From: Scenedesmus sp. PABB004
Taxonomy: Eukaryota
Direction of reading: 5' to 3'
Assembly (NCBI GenBank): GCA_014905635.1
Contig: CM026547.1
Location: forward strand, 2,542,001-2,606,000
Length of the DNA: 64,000 bases
Shown one piece after another: positions 28,105 to 52,420 of the stretch. The position numbers and the translations under genes were made by a program. Positions within the stretch are counted from its first letter, which is position 1, and the number at the start of each line of letters is the position of its first letter. A model generated the notes under the pieces. That model worked only from the letters and a program-made list of their open reading frames with translations. It had not been told where the DNA came from and searched no databases.

Positions 28105-28299
28105 TTTTCGGCGGGCGGCGCTGCTGCTGCGACGGCCGCGGCGGCGGGCGTGCGATCTGGGCGCGTCGGAGGCTAGCAATGCCTGCAACCAAGCGCTGTG
28201 AGGGCGCCGGCGGCGGCGACGGTGGAGGCCGTGCGCGGCGGCTGCGAGGGGTTGCAGAGCCCTGCGCATGACGGAGCACGGGTGTCACAGCGCTCGCGT

Positions 28300-28304
28300 T
28301 TACA
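28300..28304 (-). terminator. UGUAA poly(A) signal of the kinesin gene
   Basis: TTACA on + about 60 nt beyond the kinesin stop codon. Confidence 0.55.
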
Positions 28305-28365
28305 GTCGGCCGGCTCAACCCACGACCAACGGCCGGGCATGCGCCCACGGCCAGCCCTCGCCCGC

Positions 28366-29189: not shown

Positions 29190-29229
<40 letters not shown>

Positions 29230-32256: not shown

Positions 32257-35200
32257 ATGGTGCGGCGCCGGCCGGGGCGCTGGCGTCGCACGCGGCGGCG
32301 GCGGCGGCGCGGCGATTCTGCGCTGACCGCGCGCGCCGCTCGCAGTCGGTGTCCTGGGAAGAGCCCGCGGCCAGCGGGACGCCGCCCTGCGCGCGCTCGG
32401 GGCACACCTTCACCGCCGTGGGCGGCCGCTTCCTGCTGTTTGGCGGCACGGGCCGCGCCGACGGTGCGACAGCGCCGCTGCGCCGCGCCGCGGGCGCCGC
32501 TGCGCCGCGCCGCGGGCGCCGCCGCGCCGCAACACCGCGCGCGCCCGGCAGGCAAGGCCCAGACCTTCAACGACCTCTACGAGCTCGACACGAGCTGCGC
32601 GGACGAGTACAAGTGGCGCCAGATCGCGACGCCGACCGCGCCGCCGCCGCGCGCGCGGCACTGCGCGGCCGCGGTGCGCGGGCGGCGGCCGCGGTGGCAG
32701 CGGGCCGGGCAGCCGCGGCTGTGTCACAAGCGCCCACCCCCAGCCGCCCCGCGCAAGGGCGCCTGCTCAGCCGCCGCCCGTGCGCCGCGCCCCGCCCGCC
32801 CGCCTGCCGCCGCGCGGCGGCGGCCCGCAGGTCGGCGAGCGCCACCTGCTGGTCTTTGGCGGGCTCGACAAGCGCACGCGCTACGACGACGCCTGGCTCT
32901 TCTCCCTGGACGAGGGCGCCTGGGCGCCGCTCGCGCTGCCCGAGGGCGCGCCGCGCCCCGCGCCGCGCGCGCACGCGACCGCGACGCGCGTCGGCGGGCG
33001 GCTGCTGCTCTTCGGCGGCTACGGCGGCGGCGGCGCGGTCTTCAACGACCTCTGGGCGCTGCACCTGCCCGCGCCGGGCGGCGGGCCCGCCGCCGCCGGC
33101 CGCGCCGCGGGCGGCAGCGCCTTCCGCTGGGAAGAGCTGTCGCCCGCCGGCGTCGCGCCGAGCCCGCGCTTCGACCACGCGGCGTTCGCCTTCCCCGTCG
33201 CACCAAGCAGCGACGCGTGCGACAAGCTCTGCGTCGCGGGCGGCCGCGACCTCGGCGCGATGCTGGCGGACGCGCACGTGCTCGACCTCGCGACGCTCAG
33301 CTGGAGCGCCGAGGGCGCGCCCGCGCTGCCGTACGAGGCCTGCAACGGGCTGTGCGACGGCGTGGAGAGCGTGCCGCACCACAAGGTCTTTGCCTTTGGC
33401 GGCAAGCGCGGCATGATGGACTTCAACGCCGCCGTGGAGGTCATGGACGCGGGCAGCCAGCTCTGGACCACGCCGCCGGTGGAGCCGGGCGGCGCGGCGC
33501 CCTGCGGCAGGCGCGCGGCGCGGCGGCGCAGCGCATGCGGCGGCGGCGCAGCGCGCGCGTCGGCGGCGCGCGCGCGCAAGGCCACACGCGCCCGCTCCCG
33601 CGCGCGCCCCTGCCTCCAGGGAGGACACCGCGTGGGTGTACGACGCGCGCAGCAGCAGCCTGCTCGTGTTTGGCGGCTGGGCCAGCCGCTGGCTCGGCGA
33701 CCTGGTCAGGCTCAACGTCTCCGCCATCATCGGCCCGCCCTACGCCTGCACGAGTGCGTGCCCCGCCATGCTGCCGGCCCGCCCAGCGGCGGCCGCCGCC
33801 GCGCCGCGCTGCCGGCCCGCCCGCCTGCGGCCGCCGCTGACGACGCGGCGCCTGTCGGCCTCTGCCACCGCCGCGCGCAGGCATCACCCCCGCCGCGGGG
33901 CCGGTGTTTGGCGGCACACCCATCACGATCAAGGGCCTGCGCTTCCGGCCGGGCAAGGTGCAGGTCCGCTTTGGCAGCACCGAGCGCAGCCAGGTGGTCG
34001 TGGACGGCGAGTACGTCGACGCGGAGACCATCACCGTGCGCAGCGCGAGCGCCGAGGCCTTTGGCGCGGGCGCGGCGGACGTGCGTGTGTGCATCAACGG
34101 CGAGGGCTGGACCGTGGGGCGCCTGTCGTTTGCCTACTTCGCCAACACCGCCGCCGCGCACTGCCTCGCGTTTGGCCCCGGCGTGCTGCCGAGCGTCGCC
34201 GCGGGGGTGGAGGTGCCCTTCCTCATCCAAGCGCGCGACACGCTCGGCGAGCGCCGCACGAGCGGCGGCGACACCTTTGCCGTGCGCGTCGCGAGCCCCG
34301 ACGGCGCCACGCTCGGCGAGGCGGCGGTGTCCGACCTCGGGGACGGGCGGTACGAGGTGCGCTACTGTGTGCCCCGCCCCGGGCCCTACCTCGTCCACAT
34401 CGGCCACGCCGACCTGGGCGGCGGCGCCGAGGCGCTGCCGCTGCGGGGCAGCCCCTTCCGCGTCGAGGCGGCCGACCCCTGGACGCGGCACCGCGTGCTC
34501 GGCGCGGCGCCGGCCAGGCGCAAGGTGCGCGCTGACGAGGGCGGGGGCGGGCGCCCGTGCGAGCTTCTGGGTGGCGCGCGCGCCCGCGGACAGGCTGCAC
34601 CTCACGCGCCCCTGCGCCGCCGCCGCCGCTGCGCCGCCGCCGGCGCCGCTTCCAGGGCGCGACGCTGTCGGCGCTCAACGGCGAGCTGGTGCTCTTTGGG
34701 GGCGACAGGTCCGGCGTCAGCGTGTGCAGCGCGGCGTCGGCGGAGTGGCGCTGGGCCGCCGTGGAGCCGTCCGGGTCGCCGCCGCCGGACCGCGCCGCGC
34801 ACAGCGCGGTTGTCGCGGGCGGGCAGGTGGTCATGTTTGGCGGCGCCGCGCTCGCCGACGGCGCGGAGCTCGGCGACCTGTTCTGGCTGAAGAAGCTGCC
34901 CAGCGGCGGCTGGGCGTGGGGCGGGCCGCAGAGCCAGACGCCCTACGTCAGGTGCGGGCGCCGGGTGTGCCGCCGCTGCCGCTGCGCCGCGCGCGCCTCG
35001 CATACCTCGGGGCCGCCGCCCATGCGCGCCACCCGCCGCTGCCGCAGGCACTCCGCGCCCGCGGCGGGCGCGGAGCCCGACGACGCGCCGCGCCCCGTCG
35101 CGCCGCGCGCCAGCCACGCGGCGGTTGCCCTGGACCAGCAGCTGATGCTGCTCGGCGGCGAGAGCGGGGGCTCGCTCATCTCAGAGCTCTGCATGACCGA

Positions 35201-38200
35201 GACTAACGTCCCGGTGCGCGCCGCCGACGAGCGCGCATGCAGGGGCCGGGGCCGCTCCGCCAGCGCGCGCGTCGCGCGCGGTGCCCCACGCGCCCGCGCC
35301 CGCCGCCGCCGCACCGGCGCGCGCAGGTCGCGCACTGGGTGGAGCCCGTGCTGCGCGGCGACGTCCCCGCGCCGCGCAAGGGCGCGGCGGTGGCGACCAG
35401 CAACGGCCGCATCATCATGTTTGGCGGCGTCGCCGAGCGCGGCGACGAGCCCGCGGCGCTGCTGGACGAGCTGGTCATGTTTGACGTCGAGGGCAAGCAC
35501 GCGCTCGCGTGCACGGTGGCGCCCGAGGTGTCGGGCCCGCGCCCGCCGGCGCGCAGCGGCGCGACGCTGCTGGAGTTTGAGCCTGGCAGCCTGCTGCTGT
35601 ACGGCGGGCTCGGCGCGGACGGGCGGCCGCTGCACGACGCGTGGCTGCTGGACGTCGACGCGCTCGCATGGCGCAAGGTCTACAGCGGGCACCCCGACGC
35701 CGTGGGCCCGTCGGGTGCGGCCCAGCGGGCGCGCCGCGCGCCTGCGCCGCAGCGGCGTGCCGCGCCGCGCCGCGCCGCCGGCCTGCGCCCCGGCCGAGCG
35801 GCCGCGTCCCGCGCGCCGCTGCGCGCAGGCGCGCTGGCCGCCCTGGTCAACAGCCGGCTCGTGCTCGTGGACTCGGCGCCGGCGTCCAGCAAGCTCGACG
35901 CCGTGAACTCGATCGACCTCCTGGGTGCGGCGGCGGGGTATGCCTTTGGCACCAACATGCGCACCGACGCCGTGGCGCTGCTGGAGGGCCTGGAGGCCTG
36001 GGCGGACCGCACGGCGGCGAGCATGGAGCTCGCGGCGCACCCTGACCGGCTCGGCGCGAGCTTTGACGCGCTGCTGCGGGTCATGGACGCCCTGCACCAG
36101 GTGCGCGCGCGCACATGCGCGGCGCGGCGCGGTGCGCCGTGTCAGCCAGGTGCCGTTGCGGCGGCTGGCCGGGCCCACACGCCGCGCCGCCGCCGCCGCT
36201 CTCCCGCCTCGCGCCAGGTCAAGGCGAAGCGCGGCAGCACCGACCTGCTGGTTGAGCAGCTGCGCGAGACGCTGCGCGCGCTGGCGGCGGACAAGATGGC
36301 GACCGCCAAGCTCGAGAAGCGGCTGGAGGACGCCGCGCACAAGTGGGACGGCATCAAGAAGCTGCAGCCGCAGGTCAAGAGCGGCGTGGAGCCGATACAG
36401 GTGCGCACACGCGGGCGCGGTGTGGCTCGAGCGCTGCGGCGGACCGGCGCCGCCGCGCCGCGCCGCCGCGCCGCCGCGCCCGCCCTGCCCACCTGCCCTG
36501 CCCGCCCGCCCGCCCCTCCGCGCCCGTGCGTGCGCGCAGGCTGTGCAGGGCGCGCGCATCCGGCGGGACATCGAGGCCTTCACGTCGCGCGTGGCCGCGC
36601 AGCAGGCCGCCTTCCGCGCGCGCCCGCTGTTCAGGGCCGCCACGGGCGTTGCCGCCGCGCGTGGCCTGCTCGACGGCGCCGCGGCGGAGCTGGCCAAGCT
36701 GCGCAAGGAGGCAGCGGCGTTTGGTGAGCTCGCGATCGTCTTTGAGCTGAGCGACGCAATGGCCTCGGTCAGCGCGACGCTCGCGGAGCTGCAGGAGGAC
36801 CTGGCGGCGGCCAAGGAGGTGTGGGACGTCACGGTGGCGTGCGAGGCGCAGTTCCAGGTGCGGCTGCCGGCCCGCGCACGCGGGGACGCATCGGGGGGCA
36901 GCTGCCGACGCTGCGCGGCCGGCGCCGCCGCTGACGCTGGCACCGCCACCGCCCCGCGCACGCGCGCAGGCGTGGCGCCAGACCCTATGGAGCGGCATCA
37001 GCACGCAGGAGATGGAGGAGGGCGCCAAGCAGTTTGTCAAGGACGTCAAGGCCCTGCCCAAGCGGGTGCGGCAGCGGCCGGCACGCGCCACCGCGGCAGC
37101 GCCGGCCCGGGCTGGCCCCCGGCTGGCCGGCGGGCGGGAGCGGCGGCCGAGGGCGGCGCACACTCCGCCCGCCCCTGCCCTGCTCCGCCCTCACGCGCCG
37201 CGCGCGGCCCGTCTGCCCGCCGTGTCTGCTGTCAGGTGCGCGGGGAGGATGTGTTCAAGGGCCTCGACGCGATGGTCAAGAACTTCCTGGTCTCGGTGCC
37301 GCTCGTGGCAGACCTGCGCAGCCCCGCGATGCGCGAGCGCCACTGGCAGCAGCTCATGGACGCCACCAAGGCGCGCGGCGCGGCGCGGGGAGGCGGCCTG
37401 CTGCCCGTGGTCGAAGCCGGGGGGCAGAAGAGGCCTGACCGCCGCCGCGCCGCGCGCCGTGCGTGCGGCGCAGGTGCCGATCAAGGTCGGCGACCCCGGC
37501 TTCAAGCTGGACGACCTGCTGGCGCTGGAGCTGCACCGCTTTGAGGAGGAGGTGGGCGAGATCGTCGACCGCGCGCAGAAGGAGGAGAAGATGGAGAATG
37601 GGCTGGCCAAGCTGTCCGAGGCGTGGGCGCGCGTCGCGTTTGTCTTCACGCGGCACAAGGACAGCGACGTCCACACCGCCAAGATGGCGGAGGAGGACTT
37701 TGAGGCGCGGCGGAGCCGGCCGGCGCTGCGGGGGGCTGGCCGCTGGCCGGCAGCTCGCGAGGCTGCGATCGCAGCCCCGGCCTGCGCGCGTCGCCGCCCG
37801 CCCGCTGACCGCGCGCGTGGCCGCCCGCGGCTGCCGGCGCCGCCCGCAGATGCTGGAGGACAACCAGGTGCTGGTGCAGGGCATGATGGCCAACCGCTAC
37901 ATGGCGACCTTTCGGGACGACGTGCTCGCGTGGAACCGCAAGCTCATGGCCGTCGCGGACGTGGTCGGCGCGCTGACCGAGATCCAGCGCACCTGGGCCT
38001 ACCTGGAGAGCCTCTTTGTCGCGAGCGAGGAGGTCAAGCGCGAGCTCCCCGAGGCGGCGCGGCGCTTCGCGGGCATCGACGCCGACGTCAAGGCCGTGCT
38101 GGCGGAGTTCAAGGCCGTGCAGAACGCGGTCGCGTGCTGCGGCAAGGAGGGGCTGCTCAAGTTCCTGGAGAAGCAGCAGCGCGAGCTCGAGGTCCGCGGC

Positions 38201-41200
38201 GCGACACCGCGGGCGGCGCGCGGCGCTGCGGCGCGCGGACGGGCGCGCCGCCGGCAGGCGCGCCGCCGCGCGGGCACGGCGCCGACCGACCCGCCGCCGC
38301 CGCCGCGTGCGCGTGCGCGGCGCGCAGGTGTGCGAGAAGGCGCTGGCGGACTACATGGAGAGCAAGCGCCGCGCCTTCCCGCGCTTCTACTTCGTCTCAA
38401 CCGCCGACCTGCTGGACATACTCTCAAACGGCAACAGCCCCGTCAAGGCGCGCCGCCGCGCGCAGCGCGCAGCACGGGCCGGCGGCGCCCAGGCTGGCCG
38501 GAGGGCGGGCGCGCCCACGCCCGGCGCCGCCTGCACGCGCCCGCGCCCCGCAGGTGATGCAGCACATGTCCAAATGCTTCCAGGCGATCGACAAGCTGCG
38601 CCTCGACACCGACGTGCCGGCGGCGGGGCAGCGCCCGCGCGGGCTGGGCATGGTGTCGTGCGTGGGCGACGAGTTCGTCGCCTTCAAGCGCCCCCTGCCG
38701 CTCGAGGACAAGGCGCGCCTCCGCGCGCGTCAGCTGACGCGCGGCGCCGGGCCGGGGGCGCGCGCGGCGAGAGCGCTGGCGCCAGCGTTTGCGTGCGCGT
38801 GCGCCGCCCTCACCCTCGCCCTCACCCGCGCGCCGCCGCCCCTTCCTCCCTGCCCGTGCCGCCCGCGCCGCAGGTGGAGCGGTACATGTACGACATCGTG
38901 GCCAAGATGCGCAGCGAGCTGCGCGACGTGCTGCGCGACAGCGTGGCCGACTATGCGGCCAAGCCGCGCGACCGCTGGCTCTTTGACTGGCCCAGCCAGA
39001 TCATCCTCGTGGTCAACCAGATCTTCTGGTGCCAGGAGGTGGAGCAGGTGCGCCGCCGCCGCGGGGCCGGGCAGGGAGGGCCGCAGGGCGCGGGGCTCGC
39101 GCGCCGCGCGAGCGCGCGACCCCGCGGCGGCGGGCGTTCCCTCAGGCGCGCGCGCGCTGCTGCGGCGCGCCGCCGCGGCGGCAGGCCTTCCACGCGATGG
39201 CGCGCGGCGACGCCGGCGCGATGGCCAAGTACAACGAGCTGCAGGTCAAGCAGCTCACGCGGCTCATCGAGGTCACGCGCACGCTGCTGCCCAAGCCGGA
39301 CCGCCAGAAGGTGACGCAGAGCGCGCGCCCGCCTGCCTGCCTGCCCGCGCGCCGGCGCGCCGCCGCCCTTGGCTGCCTGGCGCCCGCCCCTCTCACGCCC
39401 GCCGCCGCTGGCTGCGCTGCTGGGCCTACCTCAGGTGATGAACATGATCACCATCGACGCGCACAGCCGCGACATCGTGGCCAACGTCGTCGCCGCGGGC
39501 AACGACAAGCCCGACTGCTTCCTCTGGATGTGCCAGCTGCGCAGCTACTGGGATGCGTCCATCTCGGACTGCCGCATCCGCATCTGCGACGCCTCCTTCC
39601 CCTACGGTGCGCGCGCGGCGCGGCGCGGCGCGGCGCGGGAGGGCGGCGGTCGCGGCGGCTAGAGGGCGGGGACAGACGGCGCGCGCCAGCCGGCCGGCCG
39701 GCCGAGCCCCGGCCCGCCCCGCCGCGGCTGACCGACTCCTGCCTGCCTGCGCGCTGCGTGCGCGTGGGGCTGCAGGCTACGAGTACCTCGGCAACGGGCC
39801 GCGCCTCGTCATCACGCCCCTGACCGACCGCATCTACATCACCGCCACCCAGGCCTGCTGGCTCTGCCTCGGCACCGCGCCCGCGGGGCCCGCGGGTGCG
39901 AGCCGCGCCGCGCCGCGCCGCGCCGCGTGCCGGCCGCAGTGGTCGCCGGCTGCCCCGCCCGCGCGCGCGCACGCGTCGCGAGCGCGCCGCCGCGCCCGCG
40001 CTGCCGCGCCCGCGCGCCGCGCGCCAGGCACGGGCAAGACGGAGACGACCAAGGACCTCAGCGCGCAGCTCGGCAAGAGCGTGTACGTGTTCAACTGCTC
40101 GCCCGAGATGGACTTCCGCACCATGGGCGACATCTTCAAGGGCCTCGCCGCGAGCGGCAGCTGGGGCTGCTTCGACGAGTTCAACCGCCTCATCCCCGAG
40201 GTGCTCAGCGTGTGCAGCGTGCAGTACAAGTGCGTCACCGACGCGCAGAAGCGCAAGTCGCTCCTGCCCGGACGGTGCGGCGCGGCGCGGCGCGGGCGCT
40301 GCCGCCGGGGGGGGGGGGGGGGCGCCGCCGCGGGGCGCGGTGGCGCTGCCGCAGCACGCGCGCGCGCGCGCGCGCGTGCGCGTGCGGGGCCGCGGGCGGG
40401 CAGGGCCAGCCGCCGCGCCGGCGGCCCGCCGTCGCCCACCGCCGCCGCCGTGCCGCGCCGCGCAGGGGCCTTGAGTACGTCGACCGCGACGGCGGCAAGC
40501 ACGCGGCGGTGTCGGCGTGGACCTTCACCGCGGCGGACGGCGTTGAGATGCCGCTGGAGGAGGGCGCGAGCGCGTTCATCACGATGAACCCCGGCTACAT
40601 CGGCCGCGCGGAGCTGCCCGAGAGCCTCAAGGCGCTCTTCCGGCCCATCACGGTCGTCGTGCCGGACCGGCAGCTCATCATGGAGAACATGCTCATGGCT
40701 GAGGTGAGGGGCGGGCCTGGCTGCAGGGTGGGCGGGTAACCTCGAGGCAGGCGGGCGGGTGTCTGGGTGTGACGCGCGGGGCGCGGCGTGACGCGGGAGT
40801 TGGGCGCGCGACCCCGCACACGCGCCACGCCGTGCCGCGCCCTCGCAGGGCTTTGTTGAGGCCAAGGTTCTGGCCAAGAAGTTTGCCAGCCTCTACTTCC
40901 TGCTGGAGGACCTGCTCTCACCGCAGAAGCACTACGGCGAGCGGGCGGGCCGCGCGGGGGCGGGCGGGGCGGCGGCGGGCGCGCGGGCAGGAGGCGCGCC
41001 CCGGGCCGCGCGTGCGCGCCTGGGCCGGCGCGCGCCCGAACCCTGCGCGGGGTGCCGGCCGCCGCCGCAGACTGGGGCCTGCGCGCGATCAAGTCGGTGC
41101 TGGTCGTTGCGGGCAGCATGCTGCGCGCGGAGGAGGGCCAGGTGGAGAGCCACGTGCTGTTCCGCGCGCTCCGCGACTTCAACGTCCCCAAGATCCTCGA

Positions 41201-44200
41201 CCAGGCGCGGCGGCGGCGGCGGCGCCCTGCTGCGCACGCGGGCTCGGCTGCCCCACGCGCGCGCGCGCTTGCGCGTGCGCCTGGCGCGACGCCCCCGCCC
41301 GCCCGCCCGCCCGCCCCTCCGCCGTTTGCCTGCCGCCTGCCGCCGCCGCGCGCGTGACCACCGCAGGACGTGGTCATCTTCATGGGCCTCCTGGGCGACC
41401 TCTTCCCCGGCGTCGACCCGCCGCGCAAGCGCGACCCCGCGTTTGAGGCCGTCATCGCGCAGGTCACCGCCGAGATGAAGCTCACGCCCGACCCCGACTT
41501 CACGCTGCGCGTGGTGCAGCTCAGCGAGCTGCTCGCCATCCGGCACTGCGTCTTCCTGGTGCGCCCGCGCGCGCGCACGCTCGCCGCGCGGCGGCCGGCC
41601 GCGGCCACGGCGTGCGCCGCCGCCCACGCCCACCACGCCCGCGCGCGCCCGCCGCCGCCGCCGCGGCCGGCCTGCTTGCAGATGGGCCCGACCGGCAGCG
41701 GCCGCACCGAGGTTTACAAGGTGCTCGCGCGCGCGATCGCGCGCGGCTGCGCGTCGCCCGTGAACGACTACCTGGCCATGACCAACCGCAAGAAGGTGGT
41801 CCTGCGCGACATCGACCCCAAGGCCGTGAGCACGCAGGAGCTGTACGGCTTCGTCAACATGGCCACGCGCGAGTGGAAGGTGCGGCGCGGGCGGGGCAGG
41901 GGCGGGCGCGCGGAACGGCTGCTGCGCGCGCGACACGCGTGCTGCGCGTGCTGCGCGCGCTGGGCGTGCTGCGCGTGCAACGCGCACCCACCCTTTTGCC
42001 GCGCCGCGCCGCGCCGCAGGACGGGCTGCTGTCGTACACCATGCGCGAGCTGGCCAACGCGGCCGACGACAACCCCAAGTGGATCCTGCTCGACGGCGAC
42101 CTCGACGCCAACTGGGTGGAGAGCATGAACAGCGTCATGGACGACTCCCGCCTGCTCACGCTGCCCAGCAACGAGCGCATCCGGCTGCTGCCGCACATGA
42201 AGATGATCTTTGAGATGCGCGACCTCAAGTACGCCACGCCCGCGACCGCGACGCGCGCGGGCATCCTCTACGTCAGCGAGGGCCGCCAGTGGCACAACAT
42301 GGTCGCCTCCTGGCTCACGCGCGTCGCGCGGCCCTACGCGGAGCGCGCCAAGTGGAAGGCGCGGCGCCGCGCCGCGCGGCCGAGGGGGCGCCGCCGCGGC
42401 AGCCGCAGCGGCCGCGGCAGCAGCCGCCGCAGCCGCCGCAGCAGCAGCCGCAGCCGCCGCCGCAGCCGCCGCGCCGGCCCTGACCCACACGCCGCGCGCC
42501 GCAGGACCCCGGTCAGCCGGTGGCGTGGCTGACGGAGCTGTTTGACAAGTACGTCCCCGCGACGCTCGCGGAGCTGGCGCGGTCGTACCGCCACGTGACG
42601 CCGCTGAGCGCGATGAACTTTGTCACCACGCTGACCAACATCCTGGAGGGCGTGCTGCGCCCCGACACGCTCTCCGCGCGCGCGGAGCAGGCGGCGTTCG
42701 AGGCGTACTTTGTCTTTGCCTCGGTCTGGGCCTTTGGCGGCGCGCTGGTCGAGCGCGACGGCGTCAACTACCGCCGCAACTTTGACAAGTGGTGGAAGGC
42801 GACCTGGACGACGGTCAAGTTCCCGGGTGCGGCGGCGCGCGGGGGCGGCACTGGGCGCGGCGGCTGGGGCGGCCGCCGGCGGCGCAGGCCGGCTCCGGCG
42901 GCCAGGGCGGCTGCGGCGGCTGGCGGCCGGTTGGCTGCCCCGCCAGCGCCGCGCCCGCGCCGCGCCCTCACGCCATGCCGCGGCCTGTCACGCGCAGGCA
43001 AGGGCAGCGTGTACGACTACTACGTCAACCCCAAGACCGGCAAGTTTGCGCCGTGGAGCGAGCTCGTCGCGCAGGTCACGTACGACGGCGGGCGCGCCAT
43101 GGGGTCGCTCTTCGTGCCCACCGCGGAGACGAGCTCGCTGCGCTTCTTCCTGGACATGATGGTCGACCTGCGCAAGCCCATCATGTTTGTCGGAGGTGCG
43201 GCGCGCAGCGGGGGCTGTCCGGGGCGGCGGCGCCGGCACGCGCGCCGCGCTGCGCCGCGCCGAGCACGCCCAACCGCCGCAGGCGCGGGCGTGGGCAAGA
43301 CGCAGCTGGTCAAGGGCAAGCTCGCGGGGCTGCCCGAGGAGGTGATGAGCCTGAGCATCGCGTTCAACTACTTCACCGACGTCGCGTCCTTCCAAAAGGC
43401 GAGCCCCTCGCGGCGGCGCGCACAGCGCTGTGCTCTGCAGTGCGGCAGCCAGCGCGCGGGGCGCGGCGCCCTGGCGCCTGACACGCCCGCCACCGCGGGC
43501 CGCCGCCGCCGCGCAGGTGCTGGAGTCGCCGCTGGAGAAGAAGGCGGGCGTGAACTACGGCCCGCCGGGCAGCAAGTCGCTCATTTACTTTGTGGACGAC
43601 CTCAACATGCCCCGCCTCGACGCGTACGAGACGGCCATGCCCATCAGCCTCATCCGCCAGCACCTCGGCTGGGGCCACTGGTGCGCCGCGGCGCGGCGCG
43701 CAGCACACAGCACACAGCGCGGCGCCGACCACCACACCGCCCCGCCGCGCGGCGCGCGCCAGGTTTGACCGGGCCAAGCTGACGCAGAAGAGCATCAACA
43801 ACACGCAGTACGTGGCCTGCATGAACCCGACCGCCGGCAGCTTCACGATCAACCCGCGCCTGCAGCGCCTCTTCTGCACGCTCGCGGTCGACACGCCCGG
43901 CCAGGACAGCCTCATGACCATCTACGGCACCTTCCTGCAGGCACGGCCGCGAGGGGGGCCGCAGCAGTGTGGCTGCGGCAGCGGCCAGCGCCGCGCGGCC
44001 GGCCGGCCGCCGACAGCCGCGCGCCTGGGGGCGCGCGCGCGCGCCGCAGGGCCACCTCAAGCGCTTCAAGGAGGACGTGCAGGAGCTGGGGACCAAGATC
44101 CTGCAGGCCGCGCTCGCGCTCCACGACCGCGTGAGCAGCACGTTCAGGAAGACGGCCGTCAACTTCCACTACGAGGCGCGAGCATGAGCGCTGCGCCGCC

Positions 44201-47200
44201 GCCGCGCGCGGCGGCTGCTGATGGCGCGCTGGGCGGCCACTGACGCGCCCGGCGCTGCCCTGCTCCGCCGCCGCCGCCGCCGCCGCCGCCGTCCGCGCAG
44301 TTCACCGTGCGGCACCTGGCCAACGTCTTCCAGGGGCTGCTGATGTCGTCGCCCGACGTGATCAACACGCCCGCCAAGTGGGGCAAGCTCTGGCTGCACG
44401 AGAGCGAGCGCATCTACGCCGACCGCCTCGTCTCCGCGCAGGCGCGCGCCGCGCGCAGCGCGCCGTCCACCCGCTCGCTGCACGCCTCGCACGCGCCCCC
44501 TGATCATGACTCGCCCCGCGTGCCTCCCGCGCTGCCCCGCGCCGCGCCGCCAGGACCTGGAGTCGTACACCAAGGCCGCCCTGGGCGTGGCCAAGAAGTA
44601 CTTTGACATCCCCGACATCAACGACCACTACCGCAAGAAGGACCCCCGCCCCCTCATCTTCTGCCACTTTGCGCGCGGCCTCGCAGACAAGACCTACGAC
44701 GAGGCGCGCCGCCGCGACGCCGCGCGGCGCGGCGCGGCTGCGTGGCCGGGCGGCGTGCCGGGCAGAGCGCCGCCGCGCGCGCTGCGCTCAGCCCCTGCGC
44801 CCGCCCTCTCTCTCCCCCCCCCCCCCCCCCCGCAGGTGCCTGACTACCAGCACATGGCCCGCGTGCTCACCGAGGCGCTGCTCGAGTACAACGAGACCAA
44901 CGCGGGCATGAGCCTGGTGCTGTTTGAGGACGCGATGAAGCACGTCGCGCGCATCGTGCGCATCTGCACCAGCCCCGGCGGCCACGCCCTGCTCGTCGGC
45001 GTCGGCGGCAGCGGGAAGCAGTCGCTCGCGCGGTGCGTGCGCGGCGCGGCGCGCCGGCGGCGCCGGCTCCGGCTCGGCGCGGCGCCGTAGCTCAGCCCTG
45101 TGCCGCCGGCCGGCTGCGGCACGCCGACGCACGCCCGCCGCCCGCCGCCCTGCGCCGCGCCCGGCCGGTCGCCGCCGCGCGTGCTCCGCGCCGCTCCGCC
45201 CGCAGCCTGGCGGCGTTCATCTGCGGCTACACCACCGTCACGATCGTTATCAGCGGCAACTACAGCCTCGCCAACTTCCGGGAGGACCTGGCGAAGATGT
45301 ACCGCCGCGCGGGGCTCAAGGGCGAGGGCCTGCTCTTCCTGCTCACCGACAGCCAGGTCGTGGACGAGCGCATGCTGGTCTACGTCAACGACCTCCTCGC
45401 GAGCGGGGAGATACCAGACCTCTTTGCCCAGGCGCGCGCGCGGCCTCGGGCGCGCGGCCGAGGGCGCGCGGCCTGGGGCGCGCCGCTCGCGCACCGCCGG
45501 CCCAGCCCGGCCGCCCTGCCACCGCGCCGTCGCCGCGCAGGAGGAGCGCGACGAGATCATCAACGCCATCCGCGGCGAAACCAAGTCGCGGGGCCTCGCC
45601 GACACGCCCGAGAACTGCTGGGCGACCTTCATCGGCAACGTCAAGACCAACCTACACGTCGCGTTCACCGCGAGCCCCGTCGGCGAGGCGTTCCGCGTGC
45701 GCAGCCAGCGCTTCCTGGCCACCATCAGCGCGACCGTGATCGACTGGTTCCAGCCCTGGCCCGAGGCGAGCCTGCTGAGCGTCGCGCGCAAGTTCCTGGA
45801 CGACTGCGAGCTCGACAGCGAGGCGGTGCGCAGCGCGGTGGTGGAGTTCATGCCGTTCAGCTTTGCCGCCGTCAACAAGGTGCGCGCGCGGGCGCGGGCG
45901 CGGGCGCGCTGCGCGGCACGGCGGCGTGGGCGGCAGGCCCCAGGGCGCCCGCGCCGGCCGGCGCGCCCCTCGCCGCCCACACTCCACCGCGGCGCCGCAG
46001 GCGAGCAAGGCGTTCTACGAGGCCGAGCGGCGGCACAACTACACGACGCCCAAGACCTTCCTGGAGCTGATCAAGCTCTACAAGAGCGTGCTGACCGGCA
46101 AGCGCAGGCAGAGCCAGGAGGCCATCGACAGGCGCGCGCACGCGCGCGCGGCTTTGGGAGGGGGGCTGGCGCGCTGGCCTCGCGCACACGCCGCCCGCCG
46201 CCCCCTGCTACCGCCGCTGCGCGCGCGCAGGCTGGAGAACGGGCTGAGCAAGCTGCACAAGACTCAGAGCGAGGTGGACGTGCTGGTGGAGAACGCGCGC
46301 GCGATGGCAATCGAGGTGGAGCACAAGGTCGCCAGCGCCAACGCGTTTGCCGAGCAGGTGCGCATGCGCCCGGGGGGGCTGCGCGCGAGCAGTGGCAGCC
46401 TTGGGCGGCTGCGGCGGCGCCGCGCAGCCCACCGCGCGCTCGCGCGCCCGCACGGGTAGGTCGGCGTTGAGAAGGAGAAGGTGGCGGCCGAGAACGACTC
46501 GGCCAAGGTGGAGGCCGACAAGTGCGCCGTGATCGCCAAGGAGGTGTCCGAGAAGCAGGCGGTCTGCGAGCGCGAGCTGGCGGCGGCGGAGCCGCTCGTC
46601 GCGCAGGCCGAGGCGGCGCTGGACACTCTGAACAAGAAGGACCTGGGCGAGACCAAGTCGCTGAAGAAGCCGCCGCCCGGTGCGCGCGCGGGACGGGGCG
46701 GGCCGGGGCGGGCCGGGCTGGGGCGGCTGCCCGCCCGCCTGCCCAAGGGAGCCTGCGCGCTGCCAGCGCGCTGCGCGGCGCGTCGAAGAAGGAAGGGGCC
46801 CGCGCGCGCGACCGCGCCGCCGCCCGCCCGCCGCGCCGCGCTGCGCACGCGCGTGGCAGGCGTGGACGACATCACCGCGGTCGTCATCATCCTGCTGGAG
46901 GGCAGCCCCAAGGACAAGAGCTGGGCCGCCGCGGCAAAGCTCATGGCCAACGTCGACAAGTTCCTGGACCGCCTGCGCGGCTTCAAGGCGGTCATCGACC
47001 AGGGCCAGGCGCGCAGGGCCAGGGCCTGCAGCCGCAGCGCGGCGCGCGGCGCGGGGCGGCGCTGCGCGGCGCGGTGTGCAGCCCGCGGCGTGCCGCCGAG
47101 AGGGGCCGCGCGCCCCGTGTGCCGCGGCGCGGCGCGTGCAGGTGGCCAAGAAGACGGTGGAGGCGTGCCGCAGCTACCTGGAGCTGCCGCACTTCAACAA

Positions 47201-50200
47201 GGAGGCCATCTACACCAAGTCGCGCGCCGCGGCGGGGCTGTGCGAGTGGGCCGTCAACATCGTCAAGTACTTCGACGTCGTCAGCGAGGTCGAGCCCAAG
47301 CGCCAGGAGCTGGCCGCCGCAAACGCCAAGCTGCAGGAGGCCAACACGACGCTCGCGGCGGTGCAGCAAAAGGTGGCGGAGCTCAACGCCAAGGTCGGCG
47401 AGCTCGAGGCGCAGTTCAACGCCGCGGTGGAGGAGAAGGAGGCGGCGATCAGGGAGAGCGAGCGCTGCCAGCTCAAGCTGCAGCTCGCCAACCGCCTCAT
47501 CAACGCGCTCGCCTCCGAGGGTGCGCGCCGCGCGCGCTGCCGGCCGGGCGGCCGGGGGCGCGCCATGCCCGCCGCGCGCGCCCTGACCCGCCGGCGCGGC
47601 TGCCGCCGCCGCGCACGCACGCGCGCAGGCGAGCGCTGGGCGCGCACGGTGGAGTCGCTGCGCGCGGGGTACGGCGTGCTGACGGGCGACATGCTGCTGG
47701 CGGCGGCGTTTGTGTCGTACGCGGGGCCCTTCACCTCCAAGTTCAGGGCGGGGCTGACCAGGGACTGGATCAAGTTCCTCAGCGACAAGGGCACGCCCAT
47801 GACGCCCGGCATCAAGGGTGCGCGCGCGCGCGTCAGCGGGGGCGCGGCGGCGCCGTGTGCGCGGCCGCGCGGCCGCGCGGCCGCGCCGCCGGCGGCCGCT
47901 GCCGACGCGGCGCGCCCGCCGCCGTCGGCCCCAGACCCGCTGTCGCTGCTGGTGGACGCGGCCACGGTGGCGAGCTGGGTGCGGCAGGGCCTGCCGTCCG
48001 ACCCGACGAGCGTGCAGAACGGCGGCATCCTCACCAACAGCGAGCGCTGGCCGCTGATGATGGACCCGCAGCTCCAGGGCGTGGTCTGGGTCAAGGAGCG
48101 CGAGGCAAACCACAACCTGCAGGCGCGTGTGCTGCGGCTGCCGCGCTGCGCGGCGCGACGGGCCGCCGCGCCCGGCTGCGCCAGGCTGCGCGGCGCCAGC
48201 CTCGGACGCCCGCGCGCGCGCCACGCGCGACGCCACGCCTGACGCCGTGCCGCGCCGCCGCAGGTCATCCGCATGGGCGCGGACAACATGACGTCCGTGA
48301 TGGAGCGCGCGATCGAGACGGGGCACTCGGTGCTGATCGAGAACATGGGCGAGGCGATTGACGCGGTGCTGGGCCCCGTGATCACGCGGTTGACGTTCAA
48401 GAAGGGCCGCAGCCTGTACGTGAAGCTCGGCGACAAGGACGTCGAGTACAGCCCCGCATTCCGCCTCTTCCTGCACACCAAGCTCTCCAACCCGCACTTC
48501 CCGCCAGAGGTGCAGGCGGAGCTGACGCTCATCAACTTCACCGTCACCGAGCAGGTCAGGGGGCCGCCGCAGGGGGCGCTGCGCAGGCCTGGGCCGTGCT
48601 GGCTGCCGCGGCGCTCGGGGGCGGTCGGCGCGGGCGGCTGGCGGCGGCCTGCCCGAGCACGCGCGCCGGCGCCCTGCCTGCCCGCCGCGCGCGCGGCGCA
48701 GGGCCTGGAGGACCAGCTGCTCGCGCTGGTGGTGAACAAGGAGCGCCCCGACCTGGAGGAGACCAAGACGCAGGTGTGGGGCGCTGCAGCGCTCGGGGCG
48801 CCGCGCGCGGCGGCGGGGCGCCCGCGCCCACGCGCGTGCGCGCCCCTCTCTCTTGCCGCAGCTCATCATCACCAACACCGAGTTCACGATCAAGCTCAAG
48901 CAGCTGGAGGACGAGCTGCTCTACAAGCTCTCCACCGCGGAGGGCGACATCACGGGTGCGCCCGCCCCGCCCGCCGCAGCGCCGGCGCGCAGCCCTCGGA
49001 CTAGGGCCGCCCCGGTCGCCGCCGCGCGACGGCCCCGACCCCGCCGCCGCGTCGCCCGCGGCCGCAGAGGACGTCGCGCTGATCGAGAGCCTGGAGGAGA
49101 GCAAGCGCGTGGCCGTGGAGATCGGGGAGAAGGTGGTCGAGGCGCGCGCGACGGAGGGCGCGATCAACACGTCGCGCGACGGCTACCGCCCCGTCGCGGG
49201 GCGCGGCGCGCTGCTCTTCTTCCTGCTCAACAGCCTGCACTCCATCCACGCCTTCTACCAGTTCAGCCTCAACGCCTTTGTCGCCGTGTTCAGCCGCGGC
49301 CTCGACGCCGCGCCGGGCGGGCCGCGGCGGCGCGAGCCCGTCACGCTGCGCGCGCTGCAGAAGCGCCTGAGCGGCAACGCGGCCGACTACGACGAGGTCA
49401 TCAGGAAGGCCAAGCGCGCGAGCTCCAACGCGGGCGGCCGGCGCAGCAAGCGCACGACCGCGCAGTTGGGGCACAGCGCCGCGCACGGTGCGCGCGCGCC
49501 GCGGCCGGGCTGGCGGCACCGCTCCGCGCCCGCTGGTGGTGGTGGGGGGCGCTTCTGACCGAGCGCCACGCGCCCTGGCCGCCCGCCCCCTGCCGCCCGT
49601 CCGCCAGGCGGCCTGGCCAGCAGTAGCATGACGGGCGAGCCGATCGAGGAGGACGAGGAGGAGGGCGGCGAGCTCAGCCCCGAGGCGCTCGCCGCGCGCA
49701 TCGCGGCGCTGCTGGACAGCTGCACCTACACCGTGTACAGCCACACGCGGCGGGGGCTGTTTGACCGCGACAAGCTCATCGTGCTCAGCCTGCTCACCTT
49801 CCAGATCCTGCTGCGCGACGGCCGCGTCGAGCCGGGCGAGTACGAGGCGCTCTGCCGCGGCGCGCGCAGCGTGGCGCCGCCGCCCGTCACCGACGACCTC
49901 AGCCGCTGGATGAGCGAGGCGCAGTGGGCCGCCGTCGACGCGCTGACGACCGTGCCGGGTGCGCGCGCGCGCGCGCGCGCGCGCACGGGGCTTGGCCGCG
50001 CCGCGCCGCCGCCGGGCGGCGCTCGCGCCGGCCCGCCCCGAGCTCACCGTCCCCGCCCCTCCCGCGGCGCGGCGCAGGCTTTGGCAGCCTGGCCAAGGAC
50101 CTGGAGAAGAGCAGCGACGAGTGGTGCACCTGGTGCACGGCCGAGGCGCCCGAGCGCGGCGTCATGCCGGGCGAGTGGGGCCGCATGAGCGAGTTCAAGG

Positions 50201-52345
50201 TGCGCGCCGCGCGCGCACACGCGCCCTGGGGGCAGTGCAGGCGGGCCCGCCCAGCCGGCGGCCGCGCCCGCCCTGACGCCGCGCCCGCGCCCACGCCGCC
50301 CGCGCCCGCGCCCGCGCAGCAACTGCTGCTGCTGCGCGCGCTGCGGCCCGACCGCGTGACCAACGCGCTGCAGCGCTTCTGCGAGGCCGCGATGGGCCCG
50401 CGCTACGTCAACCAGGAGCCCTTTGACCCCGCCACGGTCATCGCCGAGAGCAGCAGGCGCGGCGGCAGGCCACGCTCAGCCGCGCCGGCGCGGGGCCGGC
50501 GGGCCGGGCCGCGCGCAGCGCTCGCGCCGCTCTGCGCCGCGCCACCCATCTCCCCCCATTCACGTGTTCTCTTGCGTCCGTGCCCGCCCTCGCCCCCCTG
50601 CATGCGCGCGCAGCGGCACGCCCATCTTCTTCACCCTGTTCCCCGGCTACTCGCCGTCCAAGGAGCTCGAGGCCTACGCCGGCCGCGCGGGGCACACCGT
50701 GGCGGGCGGCAACCTCACGCTCATCTCCATGGGCCAGGGCCAGGAGGGGCCCGCGGAGGCGGTGCTCGACAGGCGAGCCACGCGGGCGGCGCGCCCGGCG
50801 CAGCGGGGCGGTGCCGGCCGCGCTGCGCCGCCGCCCACGCTGCGCCACGCGCCGCCCTGCCGCCCGCCCGCCCCAGGTACATGCGCGAGGGCGGCTGGGT
50901 GTTCCTGGACAACGTCCACCTCATGCAGGGCTGGATCCCGCGCCTCGAGGGCAAGCTGGAGGCCGCCGCGGAGGCCGCGCACCCCGGCTTCCGCTGCTTC
51001 CTCTCGGCCGAGCCCATCAACGGCGCGCCGCAGGTGCGGCGGCGCGCGCGCCGGCACGCGGCGCAGGCGCCGGCGCCGTGCCAGCCCAGCCGCCGAGCCC
51101 GCGGCGCGCCGCCCGCCCGGCCGCCCCGCCCGCTCCCGCGCGCGCGCGCGGCCGCGCAGGCGGCCATCATCCCCGAGGCCATCCTGCAGACGTGCATCAA
51201 GGTCTCCAACGAGCCGCCGTCCGACATGCGCAGCAACATGCGCCGCGCGCTGGGCGCGTTTGCGCCGGACGCCGAGGAGCGGCTGTCGCGCCCCGGGCAG
51301 CGCGCGGCGTACCGCAGCATCCTGTTTGGCCTGGCCTTCTACCACTCGCTGCTGCTGGGGCGCAAGAAGTTTGGCACCGGCATCGGCGCGGGCGCGGGCA
51401 GCGGGCTGGGCTTCTGCCGCGGCTACTCGTTCAACCTCGGTGACCTCACGACCTGCGGCGACGTGCTGCTCAACTACCTGGAGGCCTACGCGACCGTGCC
51501 CTGGGACGACCTGCGCTACATGTTTGGCGAGGTCTTTTACGGCGGCCACATCACCGACGCGTACGACCGCCGCGCCTGCACGACCTACCTCTCCGTCCTC
51601 ATCACGCCCGCCATCCTGCCGGCCGGCCCGCTCGACGACCCCGCGGCCTGGGGCCCGCCGGCGCTGCATCTCGCGCCCGGCTTCACCGCGCCGCTGCCGC
51701 GCAGCTTCGACGCGCTGCGGGAGCATATCGAGGCCGCGTTGCCGGCGGAGAGCCCGGTCGTGTACGGGATGCACCCCAACGCCGAGCTCAGCCTGCTCAC
51801 CAGCCTCGGCGAGACGCTCTTCCGCACGATCACCACCGTCACCGGCGGCGGCGGCGGTGCGGGGCGCGCGCGCGCGCGCGCAGCGCGGCGCGGCGCGGTG
51901 CGGCGCGGCGCGGCGCGGCGGTGCCGGGGCCCTGCGAGGCCCTGCGGCGCGGGCGCGCCGCGCGCAAGCGACGCCCGCGCCCGTTGCGCCCGCTCACGCG
52001 CCCGTGAGCGCGCCCGCGCGCCTGCAGGCGTCGGCGGCGGCGCGGGCGGCGAGGGCGCCGTGCGCGGGCCGCTGCGCGACTACATGGACCGCCTGCCGCC
52101 GCTGTTTGCGCTGGCGGAGATTGAGTCGCGCGTGCGCGACAAGACGCCGTACGTCATGGTCGCGCTGCAGGAGGCGGGGCGCATGAACGCGCTGCTGGCG
52201 GAGATGGGCCGCAGCATGGAGGAGCTGCAGCTCGGCCTCGACGGCGCGCTCAACATGAGCGACGCGATGGAGGCCCTCGCGCGCGGCATCGCCACAAACA
52301 CGGTGCGCCGCCCGCGCCGCGTGCGGCGGCGGCGGCGGCGGCGGC

Positions 52346-52420
<75 letters not shown>

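What the first reader, a model, noticed from the sequence alone, without database searches (positions are those of the whole stretch)
33511..50774. About one third of the dynein introns use a GC 5' splice site (GC-AG), far above the usual ~1%
Seen: keeping the conserved dynein frame intact requires GC donors at 33511, 37371, 37705, 38448, 38713, 40937, 41205, 42359, 43399, 43941, 44176, 44442, 44704, 45432, 46132, 47009, 48123, 50457 and 50773. That is 19 of the 60 introns traced. Several sit in invariant motifs with no usable GT nearby (QKHYD/WGLR, NFHYE/FTVRH, PCGR/EDTAW). Eighteen of the 19 have exonic AG before the junction, mostly AG|GCGCG; the exception (40937) has the stronger intronic GCGAG. 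GT donors tolerate weaker exon ends. GC donors also occur in the M1 peptidase (4369), GPX (9852), Aurora-like kinase (13813), DECR2 (20225), NAA40 (54051), VTA1 (55724) and the beta-helix gene (60722). Known: GC-AG introns are typically about 1% or less of introns in animals and plants. Inference: this lineage has relaxed or shifted recognition of the +2 position, with exon-side compensation, possibly through U1/U5/U6 snRNA or U1C/LUC7 changes, under extreme GC pressure.
Basis: partly seen in the sequence, partly recalled or inferred. Interest (0 to 1): 0.85.

Follow-up and report, generated by a model that had tools for sequence, protein, structure and literature searches.

The report
One-third GC-AG introns, algal dynein gene
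In this extremely GC-rich green-alga dynein gene about a third of the introns really do begin with GC instead of GT, a trait already described in a few other GC-rich algae, so it is a solid new example rather than a new kind of splicing.

Summary
The window (78.4% G+C) carries an outer-arm dynein alpha heavy-chain gene of a Sphaeropleales-like green alga. I rebuilt the gene with my own protein-to-DNA spliced aligner against five relatives' proteins. I then listed every possible junction with no constraint on the dinucleotides. GT alternatives are absent or cost 28-124 alignment points. A cross-validated ab initio predictor that uses no homology recovers all 19. In lower-GC relatives from metagenomes the same gene has 0 of 31 and 1 (dubious) of 28 GC donors. 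Seven window GC introns sit at positions shared with a 62%-GC relative, where all seven are GT. GC donors carry A at -2 in 18 of 19 cases, against 17 of 37 for GT donors. No RNA data and no whole genome were available, so splicing itself and the genome-wide rate remain unshown. Abundant GC-AG introns are already published for Emiliania, Aureococcus and Micromonas pusilla. This is a new member of a known kind.

The parts
32257..53356 (+). Outer-arm dynein alpha heavy-chain gene: spliced CDS of about 4430 codons, 60 introns (59 aligned plus an ATG-proximal one)
   Evidence: Spliced alignments to P0187, P0185, P0004, P0002 and P0001. The joined CDS of 13,296 nt has no in-frame stop. The best named hit is 'dynein alpha flagellar outer arm [Raphidocelis subcapitata]'. 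The ATG|GTGCGG first intron at 32260-32345 was read directly.
33511..33619 (+). GC-AG intron (cag|GCGCGC), phase 2
   Evidence: GC is 4 below the best score and the best GT-AG is 30 below. Recovered ab initio.
37371..37473 (+). GC-AG intron (aag|GCGCGC); the position is shared with L044, where the donor is GTACGAG
   Evidence: (GC 0, GT -40).
37705..37849 (+). GC-AG intron (gag|GCGCGG); the position is shared with L044 (GTGGGTA)
   Evidence: (GC 0, no GT-AG in range).
38448..38553 (+). GC-AG intron (aag|GCGCGC)
   Evidence: GC 0, GT -28.
38713..38873 (+). GC-AG intron (aag|GCGCGC); the position is shared with L044 (GTACGTG)
   Evidence: (GC 0, no GT).
40937..41070 (+). GC-AG intron (acg|GCGAGC), the one GC donor without A at -2; it has A at +4
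   Evidence: GC 0, GT -42.
41205..41366 (+). GC-AG intron (cag|GCGCGG)
   Evidence: GC -6, GT -44.
42359..42504 (+). GC-AG intron (aag|GCGCGG)
   Evidence: GC 0, no GT.
43399..43516 (+). GC-AG intron (aag|GCGAGC); the position is shared with L044 (GTGCGTA)
   Evidence: 5 of 6 references favour it. The annotated Raphidocelis protein P0185 alone favours GT at 43381, which drops six conserved residues..
43941..44049 (+). GC-AG intron (cag|GCACGG); the position is shared with L044 (GTGCGCA)
   Evidence: (GC 0, no GT).
44176..44300 (+). GC-AG intron (gag|GCGCGA) inside the NFHYE/FTVRH motif
   Evidence: GC 0, GT -104.
44442..44553 (+). GC-AG intron (cag|GCGCGC)
   Evidence: GC -4, GT -43.
44704..44835 (+). 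GC-AG intron (gag|GCGCGC)
   Evidence: GC 0, GT -54.
45432..45540 (+). GC-AG intron (cag|GCGCGC)
   Evidence: GC 0, no GT.
46132..46230 (+). GC-AG intron (cag|GCGCGC), phase 2
   Evidence: GC 0, no GT.
47009..47141 (+). GC-AG intron (cag|GCGCGC); the position is shared with L044 (GTGCGTA)
   Evidence: (GC 0, GT -124; a GT-only model needs a 27-codon insertion).
48123..48263 (+). GC-AG intron (cag|GCGCGT); the position is shared with L044 (GTGGGCG) and L048 (GTGGGGG). An in-frame GT lies at 48129.
   Evidence: (GC 0; GT at 48129 costs -36 and adds 2 codons).
50457..50613 (+). GC-AG intron (cag|GCGCGG), phase 2
   Evidence: (GC 0, no GT; a GT-only model needs a 25-codon insertion).
50773..50876 (+). 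GC-AG intron (cag|GCGAGC), phase 2
   Evidence: (GC 0, GT -97; a GT-only model deletes 8 residues).
55724..55855 (+). Probable GC-AG intron in the VTA1 gene (cag|GCGCGC)
   Evidence: The flanking exons match Pfam Vta1 profile positions 42-113 and 114-145. Predicted ab initio.
20116..20225 (-). Probable GC-AG intron in the short-chain dehydrogenase (DECR-like) gene (cag|GCGCGC)
   Evidence: Predicted ab initio. The adh_short profile coordinates of the flanking exons abut (about 146 to 147) once the predicted acceptor is used; this is arithmetic, so an inference.
4271..4369 (-). Probable GC-AG intron in the M1 peptidase gene (cag|GCGAGA)
   Evidence: Three divergent references place a donor at 4369 when GC is allowed, with the acceptor at 4271 or 4256. 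Predicted ab initio with 4271.
9748..9852 (-). Predicted GC-AG intron in the glutathione peroxidase gene (aag|GCGCGC)
   Evidence: Ab initio only; gene identity from Pfam GSHPx.
13813..13952 (+). Predicted GC-AG intron in a protein kinase gene (agg|GCGAGC)
   Evidence: Ab initio only. The Pkinase profile coordinates across the junction are not decisive.
53933..54051 (-). Predicted GC-AG intron in a GNAT acetyltransferase gene (cag|GCGCGC)
   Evidence: Ab initio only.
60615..60722 (-). Predicted GC-AG intron in the pectate-lyase-like beta-helix gene (aag|GCGCGC)
   Evidence: Ab initio only.

Best explanation
These are ordinary major-spliceosome (U2-type) introns whose donor has changed from GT to GC. 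The lineage is under very strong pressure towards G and C: the window is 78.4% G+C, GC3 is 97% and introns are 87-88% G+C. That pressure has pushed every degenerate position of the 5' splice site to G or C. The consensus runs AG|GTAAG in a 49%-GC relative, AG|GTG(C/G)G in a 62%-GC relative and G|G(T/C)GCG here. T-to-C changes at +2 become fixed where the rest of the site still offers enough pairing to the U1 5' end. In practice that means A at -2 together with G at -1, +1, +3 and +5. Shown: the GC donors, their context, GT at orthologous introns in relatives, and the absence of GC donors in lower-GC relatives. Inferred: that the introns are spliced at these sites, that the direction of change was GT to GC, that the driver is mutation or gene-conversion bias, and that the spliceosome itself is unchanged.
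For: (1) Junctions. Unconstrained enumeration supports 19 GC-AG introns. A GT-only alignment to the transcript-derived protein P0001 scores 5441. GT+GC scores 5613 and unconstrained donors score 5629. The GT-only model needs 25-27-codon insertions or an 8-residue deletion at 47009, 50457 and 50773.
(2) Independent of homology. A content-plus-signal predictor trained on one half of the gene recovers 30 of 30 introns in the other half and 24 of 29 in the reverse test. These include all 19 GC donors.
(3) Same signal class. GT and GC donors share G at +3 (35 of 37; 18 of 19), C at +4 (33 of 37; 16 of 19) and G at +5 (36 of 37; 19 of 19). They have the same acceptor (C/G)CAG|G, the same length (133 against 127 nt) and the same G+C.
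(4) Compensation. A at -2 occurs in 18 of 19 GC donors against 17 of 37 GT donors, P = 3.3e-4. Matches to the recalled U1-complementary consensus, counted over all nine positions including +2, average 5.68 for GC donors and 6.0 for GT donors. Since every GT donor matches at +2 and no GC donor does, the other eight positions give 5.68 against 5.0.
(5) Comparative. L078 (49% G+C) has 31 GT and 0 GC donors. L044 (62%) has 27 GT and 1 dubious GC donor, with GC allowed at no cost. Of 10 intron positions shared between the window and L044, 7 are GC here and all 7 are GT in L044. L048 also has GT at the orthologue of 48123.
(6) Precedent. GC-AG fractions of 22-64% are reported in GC-rich algae and ascribed to G+C content (PMC3033335, PMC4815162, PMC4028052; passages read). 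A stronger remaining consensus at GC donors is reported in PMC3167603 (passages).
Against: There is no RNA from this organism: no RNA holder was listed and no transcript was laid, so no junction is shown at the RNA level. P0001 is a transcript of a relative, and its protein is 93% identical in only one exon. Only one gene is solidly modelled. Outside the dynein gene the safely countable rate looks lower: about 7 well-formed GC donors among roughly 50-60 plausible introns, read by eye. The ab initio model also overcalls GC donors: 5 false GC calls in cross-validation, and GC was the majority when the model ran over wrong-strand DNA. G+C content alone does not explain such rates elsewhere: Micromonas RCC299 at 64% G+C has 1.5-2.7% (PMC3033335, PMC4815162). 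C at +4 in 49 of 56 donors exceeds what composition gives (P = 4e-11). It is a mismatch to the canonical U1, which leaves room for a lineage-specific reader. Three introns are unresolved.
Confidence: 0.72

Rival explanations
1. The lineage has a changed 5' splice-site reader, so that T and C at +2 are equivalent and GC donors are not merely tolerated. The change could be in the U1 5' end, the U6 ACAGAGA region, U5 loop 1, U1C, or LUC7-type proteins.
For: A third of donors are GC in this gene. The 5' splice-site consensus departs from the canonical one, with C at +4 in 49 of 56 donors, more than composition predicts. Iwata and Gotoh call the origin of abundant GC-AG introns 'an enigma' and suggest base modification or U1 snRNP proteins (PMC3033335).
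Against: GC donors still need A at -2 (18 of 19 against 17 of 37). That is what a costly mismatch to an unchanged U1 predicts, and it would not be needed if +2 were no longer read. In Aureococcus and Micromonas pusilla the U1 5' end is the canonical 11-mer (PMC3033335). Nothing could be tested here: there is no snRNA in the window and no genome.
Confidence: 0.13
2. The GC donors were brought in by a family of mobile introns (introner elements) that carry GC at their 5' end, as in Micromonas pusilla D-IE1.
For: Intron positions turn over fast: only 10 of 49 positions are shared with L044 and 1 of 23 with L078. Introns are uniform in length and signals. In M. pusilla 79% of GC donors lie in D-IE1 introns (PMC4815162).
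Against: An all-against-all comparison of the 59 intron interiors gives only low-complexity matches. The best is 79% identity over 89 nt. There were 533 pairs against 110-145 in mononucleotide shuffles, and no family separates GC from GT introns. GC donors are enriched among the introns shared with L044, i.e. the older ones: 7 of 10 against 11 of 39, P = 0.025. That is the opposite of what recent insertions predict.
Confidence: 0.05
3. Artefact. Either GC is so common here (19.7% of dinucleotides) that a frame-keeping GC can always be found, or the assembly has T-to-C errors at +2.
For: Allowing other common dinucleotides as donors also recovers much of the lost alignment score (GT+CG 5562, GT+GG 5538, against GT+GC 5613 and GT only 5441). 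With a distant reference the aligner made false GC calls. The ab initio model overcalls GC.
Against: Exact tie-set analysis shows 15 of 16 non-GT donors paired with an AG acceptor are GC (P = 3.4e-10). The specific context is AG|GCGCG. Orthologous introns sit at the same positions in L044 and L048. The same aligner of 31 GC donors in L078. The metagenome contigs laid on the gene list no T at any +2 site among the differences shown; contigs matching with 0-2 differences cover 37705, 44442 and 48123. Coverage is thin and 38 differences were not shown.
Confidence: 0.05

Closest known systems
GC splice donors of Micromonas pusilla CCMP1545 (van Baren et al. 2016, PMC4815162; Iwata and Gotoh 2011, PMC3033335)
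   Same: It is a green alga with a GC-rich genome in which about a quarter of donors are GC (25.6% and 22.2% in the two papers). Acceptors remain AG. The sites were missed by GT-only gene predictors.
   Different: There, 79% of GC donors lie in one introner family (D-IE1), and ordinary introns have 9.7%. Here no intron family is seen and GC donors are enriched at conserved positions. The alga there is a prasinophyte at 65.9% G+C; this one is Sphaeropleales-like at 78% G+C.
GC-AG majority in Emiliania huxleyi (Feldmesser et al. 2014, PMC4028052) and 39.6% in Aureococcus anophagefferens (PMC3033335)
   Same: GC-AG introns are abundant in GC-rich algal genomes, the authors ascribe this to G+C content, and the acceptors are canonical.
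   Different: They are unrelated lineages (a haptophyte and a pelagophyte). Their rates are genome-wide and backed by RNA; here there is one gene and no RNA. This window's G+C (78%) is well above theirs (65% and 69.5%), yet its rate is not higher.
Ordinary U2-type GC-AG introns of animals and plants, about 1% (Kralovicova et al. 2011, PMC3167603; Sheth et al. 2006, PMC1557818, search listing only)
   Same: The rest of the 5' splice site is closer to consensus than in GT donors, compensating for the +2 mismatch with U1. The acceptor and overall architecture are the same.
   Different: The frequency here is about thirty times higher. The compensation sits almost wholly at -2, because +3, +4 and +6 are fixed as G, C and C/G in both classes.

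Membership tests
U2-type GC-AG introns | The intron begins with GC and ends with AG at boundaries fixed by the coding sequence | tested here: met
   19 introns. 15 are in the unconstrained best tie set, 3 lie within 4-6 points of it, and 1 was resolved with extra references.
U2-type GC-AG introns | Apart from +2, the 5' splice site is that of the species' GT introns, and the other positions are nearer to consensus | tested here: met
   +3 G, +4 C and +5 G are shared. A at -2 occurs in 18 of 19 against 17 of 37, P = 3.3e-4.
U2-type GC-AG introns | No U12-type donor (RTATCCTT) | tested here: met
   All 19 donors read GCGCG, GCGAG or GCACG. The U12 motif is recalled and is quoted as ATATCC in PMC3033335.
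U2-type GC-AG introns | Removal from the mRNA at exactly these sites | not testable with these tools
   No RNA run was listed for this DNA. The only transcript-derived sequence is a relative's protein, P0001.
GC-rich algal genomes with abundant GC-AG introns | A genome-wide GC-AG fraction far above 1-2% | not testable with these tools
   No whole genome is held. Within the window, 19 of 60 dynein introns are GC-AG. Seven more candidates lie in seven other genes, and three of those have some homology support.
GC-rich algal genomes with abundant GC-AG introns | High genomic G+C | tested here: met
   78.4% over 64 kb and 73-84% in every 2-kb bin. This covers the window only.
Introner-element introns | Introns are copies of one or a few repeated sequence families | tested here: not met
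   Only low-complexity similarity was found among 59 introns, the best being 79% over 89 nt. This was tested within one gene only.
Outer-arm dynein alpha heavy chain (ODA11-like) | An N-terminal Kelch / IPT / filamin region followed by the DHC_N2 and AAA motor domains, with the best hits named alpha outer-arm dynein | tested here: met
   The window protein aligns end to end with P0187 (precomputed Pfam: Kelch, TIG/IPT, filamin, DHC_N2), P0185 and P0002. P0002 is named 'dynein alpha flagellar outer arm [Raphidocelis subcapitata]'. The link to Chlamydomonas ODA11 is recalled and was not tested.

The most novel reading that the evidence does not exclude
In this lineage the +2 position of the 5' splice site is close to neutral because the 5' splice-site reader itself has shifted. 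A U1 or U6 variant, or a U1 snRNP protein, would be tuned to G|GYGCG, which would also explain the otherwise unexplained C at +4. GC donors would then accumulate with intron age, so that old introns are mostly GC and young ones GT. This would make it a clade in which the GT rule is being replaced.
Probability: 0.12. Interest if true: 0.65.

Novelty: new member of a known kind. Interest (0 to 1): 0.35.

Why it matters
Practical: gene finders that insist on GT-AG will mis-model about a third of the introns of such genes in very GC-rich algal genomes and metagenome bins. The annotated Raphidocelis protein P0185 lacks six conserved residues exactly upstream of one of these donors. That looks like such an error.

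Evolutionary: the gene offers a clean series of relatives at 49%, 62% and 78% G+C. Across it the 5' splice site drifts step by step, and GT-to-GC changes can be placed at orthologous introns. This bears on the question, left open by Iwata and Gotoh, of why GC-AG introns are so abundant in some GC-rich algae. The window's G+C also exceeds the 72.4% reported as the highest among Sphaeropleales genomes (PMC7354681).

Tried and rejected
- No whole genome is held, so there was no genome-wide donor table and no snRNA search.
- The run search listed no RNA holder. It found only three freshwater-metagenome DNA runs with small shares.
- Laying their contigs gave short, thin pieces. No +2 difference is listed among the differences shown, but 38 rows were not shown and the runs may include the window's source. 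It is therefore weak support only.
- Rfam on the window gave no match.
- Earlier scan notes held nothing for this genome, and the word search found three unrelated Ostreococcus notes.
- tblastn, gapped or ungapped, runs through introns because stop codons are rare. I wrote a spliced aligner instead.
- The distant reference P0075 gave false GC calls in diverged stretches. It was superseded by closer references.
- The global test with control dinucleotides discriminated poorly. It was replaced by the tie-set test.
- The M1 peptidase references were too distant (alignment scores 339-400) to model that gene.
- The ab initio model run over the whole window chained everything into one 'gene' and overcalled GC donors. 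Its non-dynein counts of 56 GT and 48 GC are therefore not used as a rate.
- I considered and rejected U12-type introns, introner elements, assembly error and chance (see the rival explanations).
- Searches for GC-AG reports in this group found none. These were 'GC-AG' with Raphidocelis, Monoraphidium, Chlamydomonas, Chromochloris and Scenedesmus (none of the 25 listed papers contains the term, but 3,216 papers matched, so the listing is not exhaustive), and 'GC-AG' with Chlorophyceae (one unrelated paper).
- Supplementary tables of PMC3033335, which hold the per-species fractions, were not opened.

Full report
WHAT THE WINDOW IS. The window is 78.4% G+C, and every 2-kb bin is 73-84%. A 125-residue exon (47148-47522) is 93% identical to a transcript-derived protein of a relative (P0001, eukprot TSA). 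It is 86% identical to 'dynein alpha flagellar outer arm' of Raphidocelis subcapitata (P0002) and 82% identical to a Monoraphidium neglectum dynein (P0004). The organism is therefore a Sphaeropleales-like chlorophycean alga. The only public runs holding parts of the stretch are three freshwater-metagenome DNA runs. No whole genome is held and no RNA run was listed.

GENE MODEL. Stop codons are so rare here that open frames and tblastn run straight through introns. I therefore wrote a protein-to-DNA spliced aligner that handles all three intron phases and lets the allowed splice dinucleotides be set freely. I used five references. P0187 covers the N-terminal part, with Kelch, IPT, filamin and DHC_N2 domains. 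P0185 is the Raphidocelis middle part. P0004, P0002 and P0001 cover the rest. With these the gene runs from 32340 to 53353 with 59 introns. The joined CDS is 13,296 nt with no in-frame stop, although that is weak evidence in this composition. Upstream, ATG|GTGCGG at 32257-32262 and an acceptor CAG ending at 32345 give a probable sixtieth intron, read directly.

TESTING THE GC DONORS WITHOUT ASSUMING THEM. For each intron I scored every in-frame pair of donor and acceptor positions within 75 nt, whatever the dinucleotides, against all references that cover it.
- In 49 of 59 introns the best-scoring tie set contains a placement with an AG acceptor. Those sets hold 50 such placements, with donors GT 33, GC 16 and AC 1. 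The AC belongs to an unresolved intron, and one GC placement ties with a GT placement at 36101.
- With GC at 19.7% of dinucleotides, 15 or more GC among 16 non-GT donors has P = 3.4e-10.
- 33511, 41205 and 44442 are 4-6 points below it, while their best GT-AG alternatives cost 30-44.
- At 43399 the Raphidocelis protein alone prefers a GT 18 nt upstream. Five of six references contain the six residues that only the GC donor retains.
- GT-AG alternatives are absent in range for 7 sites and cost 28-124 points for 11.
- Against P0001, a GT-only model scores 5441, GT+GC 5613 and unconstrained donors 5629. The GT-only model needs 27- and 25-codon insertions and an 8-residue deletion.
It adds two codons that three references lack (minus 36).
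- Three introns (35235, 49488/92, 51857/66) lie in poorly conserved stretches and stay open. The ab initio model prefers GT for each.

The result is 19 GC-AG of 60 introns (32%), with 38 GT-AG and 3 unresolved.

A CHECK THAT USES NO HOMOLOGY. I built a small predictor from codon log-odds plus donor and acceptor weight matrices. T and C at +2 were scored by their log-odds. Trained on one half of the gene and tested on the other, it recovers 30 of 30 introns in the second half, including 11 of 11 GC donors. In the first half it recovers 24 of 29, including all 8 confirmed GC donors. It made 9 false calls, 5 of them GC. So it confirms the 19, but it overcalls GC donors.

ARTEFACTS. Contigs of the three metagenome runs laid on the gene list no T at any +2 position among the differences shown. 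Contigs matching with 0-2 differences cover 37705, 44442 and 48123. Cover is thin, 38 rows were not shown, and the runs may not be independent of the assembly. The A at -2 bias is itself hard to reconcile with sequencing error.

ANATOMY OF THE SITES. GT and GC donors share G at +3, C at +4 and G at +5. They also share the acceptor (C/G)CAG|G, the length (133 against 127 nt) and the G+C (88% against 87%). They differ at -2, where A occurs in 18 of 19 GC donors and 17 of 37 GT donors (P = 3.3e-4). The one exception (40937) has A at +4. Matches to the U1-complementary consensus (a recalled motif), counted over all nine positions including +2, average 5.68 for GC donors and 6.0 for GT donors. Every GT donor matches at +2 and no GC donor does, so the other eight positions give 5.68 against 5.0. 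This is the compensation described for GC donors in general (PMC3167603, passages). C at +4 in 49 of 56 donors is more than composition gives (P = 4e-11) and is not explained by pairing to a canonical U1.

RELATIVES. A scan of metagenome contigs returned 80 loci. Most are intron-free prasinophyte-like copies, and a few are intron-rich close relatives. I aligned the window's own protein to them with GC donors allowed at no cost:
- L078 (49% G+C): 31 GT and 0 GC donors.
- L044 (62% G+C): 27 GT and 1 GC donor, in a diverged stretch and dubious.
- L074: 6 GT. L048: 2 GT.
- L075 and L080, which resemble L078, gave 2 GC calls each at poorly aligned places.

Of the 49 window introns within the L044 alignment, 10 share the exact position. 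Seven of those are GC here, and all seven are GT in L044 with the same exon ends. L048 also has GT at the orthologue of 48123. GC donors are commoner among shared positions (7 of 10) than unshared ones (11 of 39; P = 0.025). This is a small sample, and the counts treat two unresolved introns as GT. The donor consensus moves with G+C, from AG|GTAAG (L078) to AG|GTG(C/G)G (L044) to G|G(T/C)GCG in the window. Intron interiors show only low-complexity similarity and no family.

OTHER GENES. Pfam identifies M1 peptidase, F-box, glutathione peroxidase, two kinases, a short-chain dehydrogenase, a VASt protein, kinesin, a GNAT, VTA1 and a pectate-lyase-like protein.
- 55724 is supported by Vta1 profile continuity, 113 to 114.
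- 20225 is supported by arithmetic on the adh_short coordinates, which is an inference.
- 4369 is supported by three distant references.
- The other four rest on prediction alone.

The model's raw non-dynein tally of 56 GT and 48 GC is inflated by false GC calls, so I do not use it as a rate. Counting only well-formed AG|GCG sites suggests a lower share outside the dynein gene, but still far above 1%.

WHAT IS KNOWN. Abundant GC-AG introns in GC-rich algae are in print:
- Aureococcus 39.6%, Micromonas pusilla 22.2% and Chlorella 7.7%, with the remark that high G+C seems responsible but is not the whole story (PMC3033335, abstract and passages).
- M. pusilla CCMP1545 25.6%, with RNA-seq support (PMC4815162, passages).
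- Emiliania huxleyi 56-64%, with RT-PCR checks (PMC4028052, passages).

In Aureococcus and M. pusilla the U1 5' end is canonical. I found no report for Chlorophyceae in two searches, which are not exhaustive. Mychonastes, at 72.4% G+C, was described in 2020 as the highest among Sphaeropleales (PMC7354681). This window is well above that.

VERDICT. The best explanation is tolerated T-to-C decay at +2 of ordinary U2-type introns under extreme GC pressure, limited to sites with A at -2. A changed spliceosome is not excluded but has no support. It is a new, well-documented member of a known kind. The comparative series and the age trend are its most useful parts.

Noticed in passing
window 1-64000: G+C is 78.4% overall, GC3 is 97% in the dynein CDS and introns are 87-88% G+C. 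This is well above the 72.4% that PMC7354681 gives as the highest Sphaeropleales genome. If it is typical of the genome, it would be among the most GC-rich eukaryotic nuclear genomes.
   Followed up: partly
window 32340-53353 against L044 and L078: Intron positions turn over very fast. Only 10 of 49 window intron positions are shared with L044 and 1 of 23 with L078, although the proteins are about 80% or more identical in their best segments. Each relative has many introns of its own.
   Followed up: partly
window donors; L044 and L078 donors: C at +4 of the donor occurs in 49 of 56 introns, more than composition predicts, and it is a mismatch to the canonical U1 5' end. The 62%-GC relative has C or G there and the 49%-GC relative has A.
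   Followed up: partly
window 43381-43398 against P0185: The annotated Raphidocelis subcapitata dynein protein lacks exactly the six residues that precede the window's GC donor at 43399. P0185 and P0004 also carry short odd insertions elsewhere. These look like GT-only gene-prediction errors in published annotations.
   Followed up: partly
window 32257-32345: The first coding exon of the dynein gene appears to be the ATG alone, followed at once by a GT donor (ATG|GTGCGG) and an 86-nt intron.
   Followed up: no
window 40706-40846 and 40917-41074: One contig in each of runs X1 and X2 matches three neighbouring exons but not the introns between them, and it carries about 9 differences in 41105-41153. 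A related strain or species with diverged introns is present in the same waters.
   Followed up: no
window 26550-31900 (-), 57750-62200 (-), 21300-25250 (+): The neighbouring genes include a kinesin with a Microtub_bd domain, a pectate-lyase-like beta-helix protein of at least 12 exons, and a VASt-domain protein. Their long low-complexity stretches could not be modelled.
   Followed up: no
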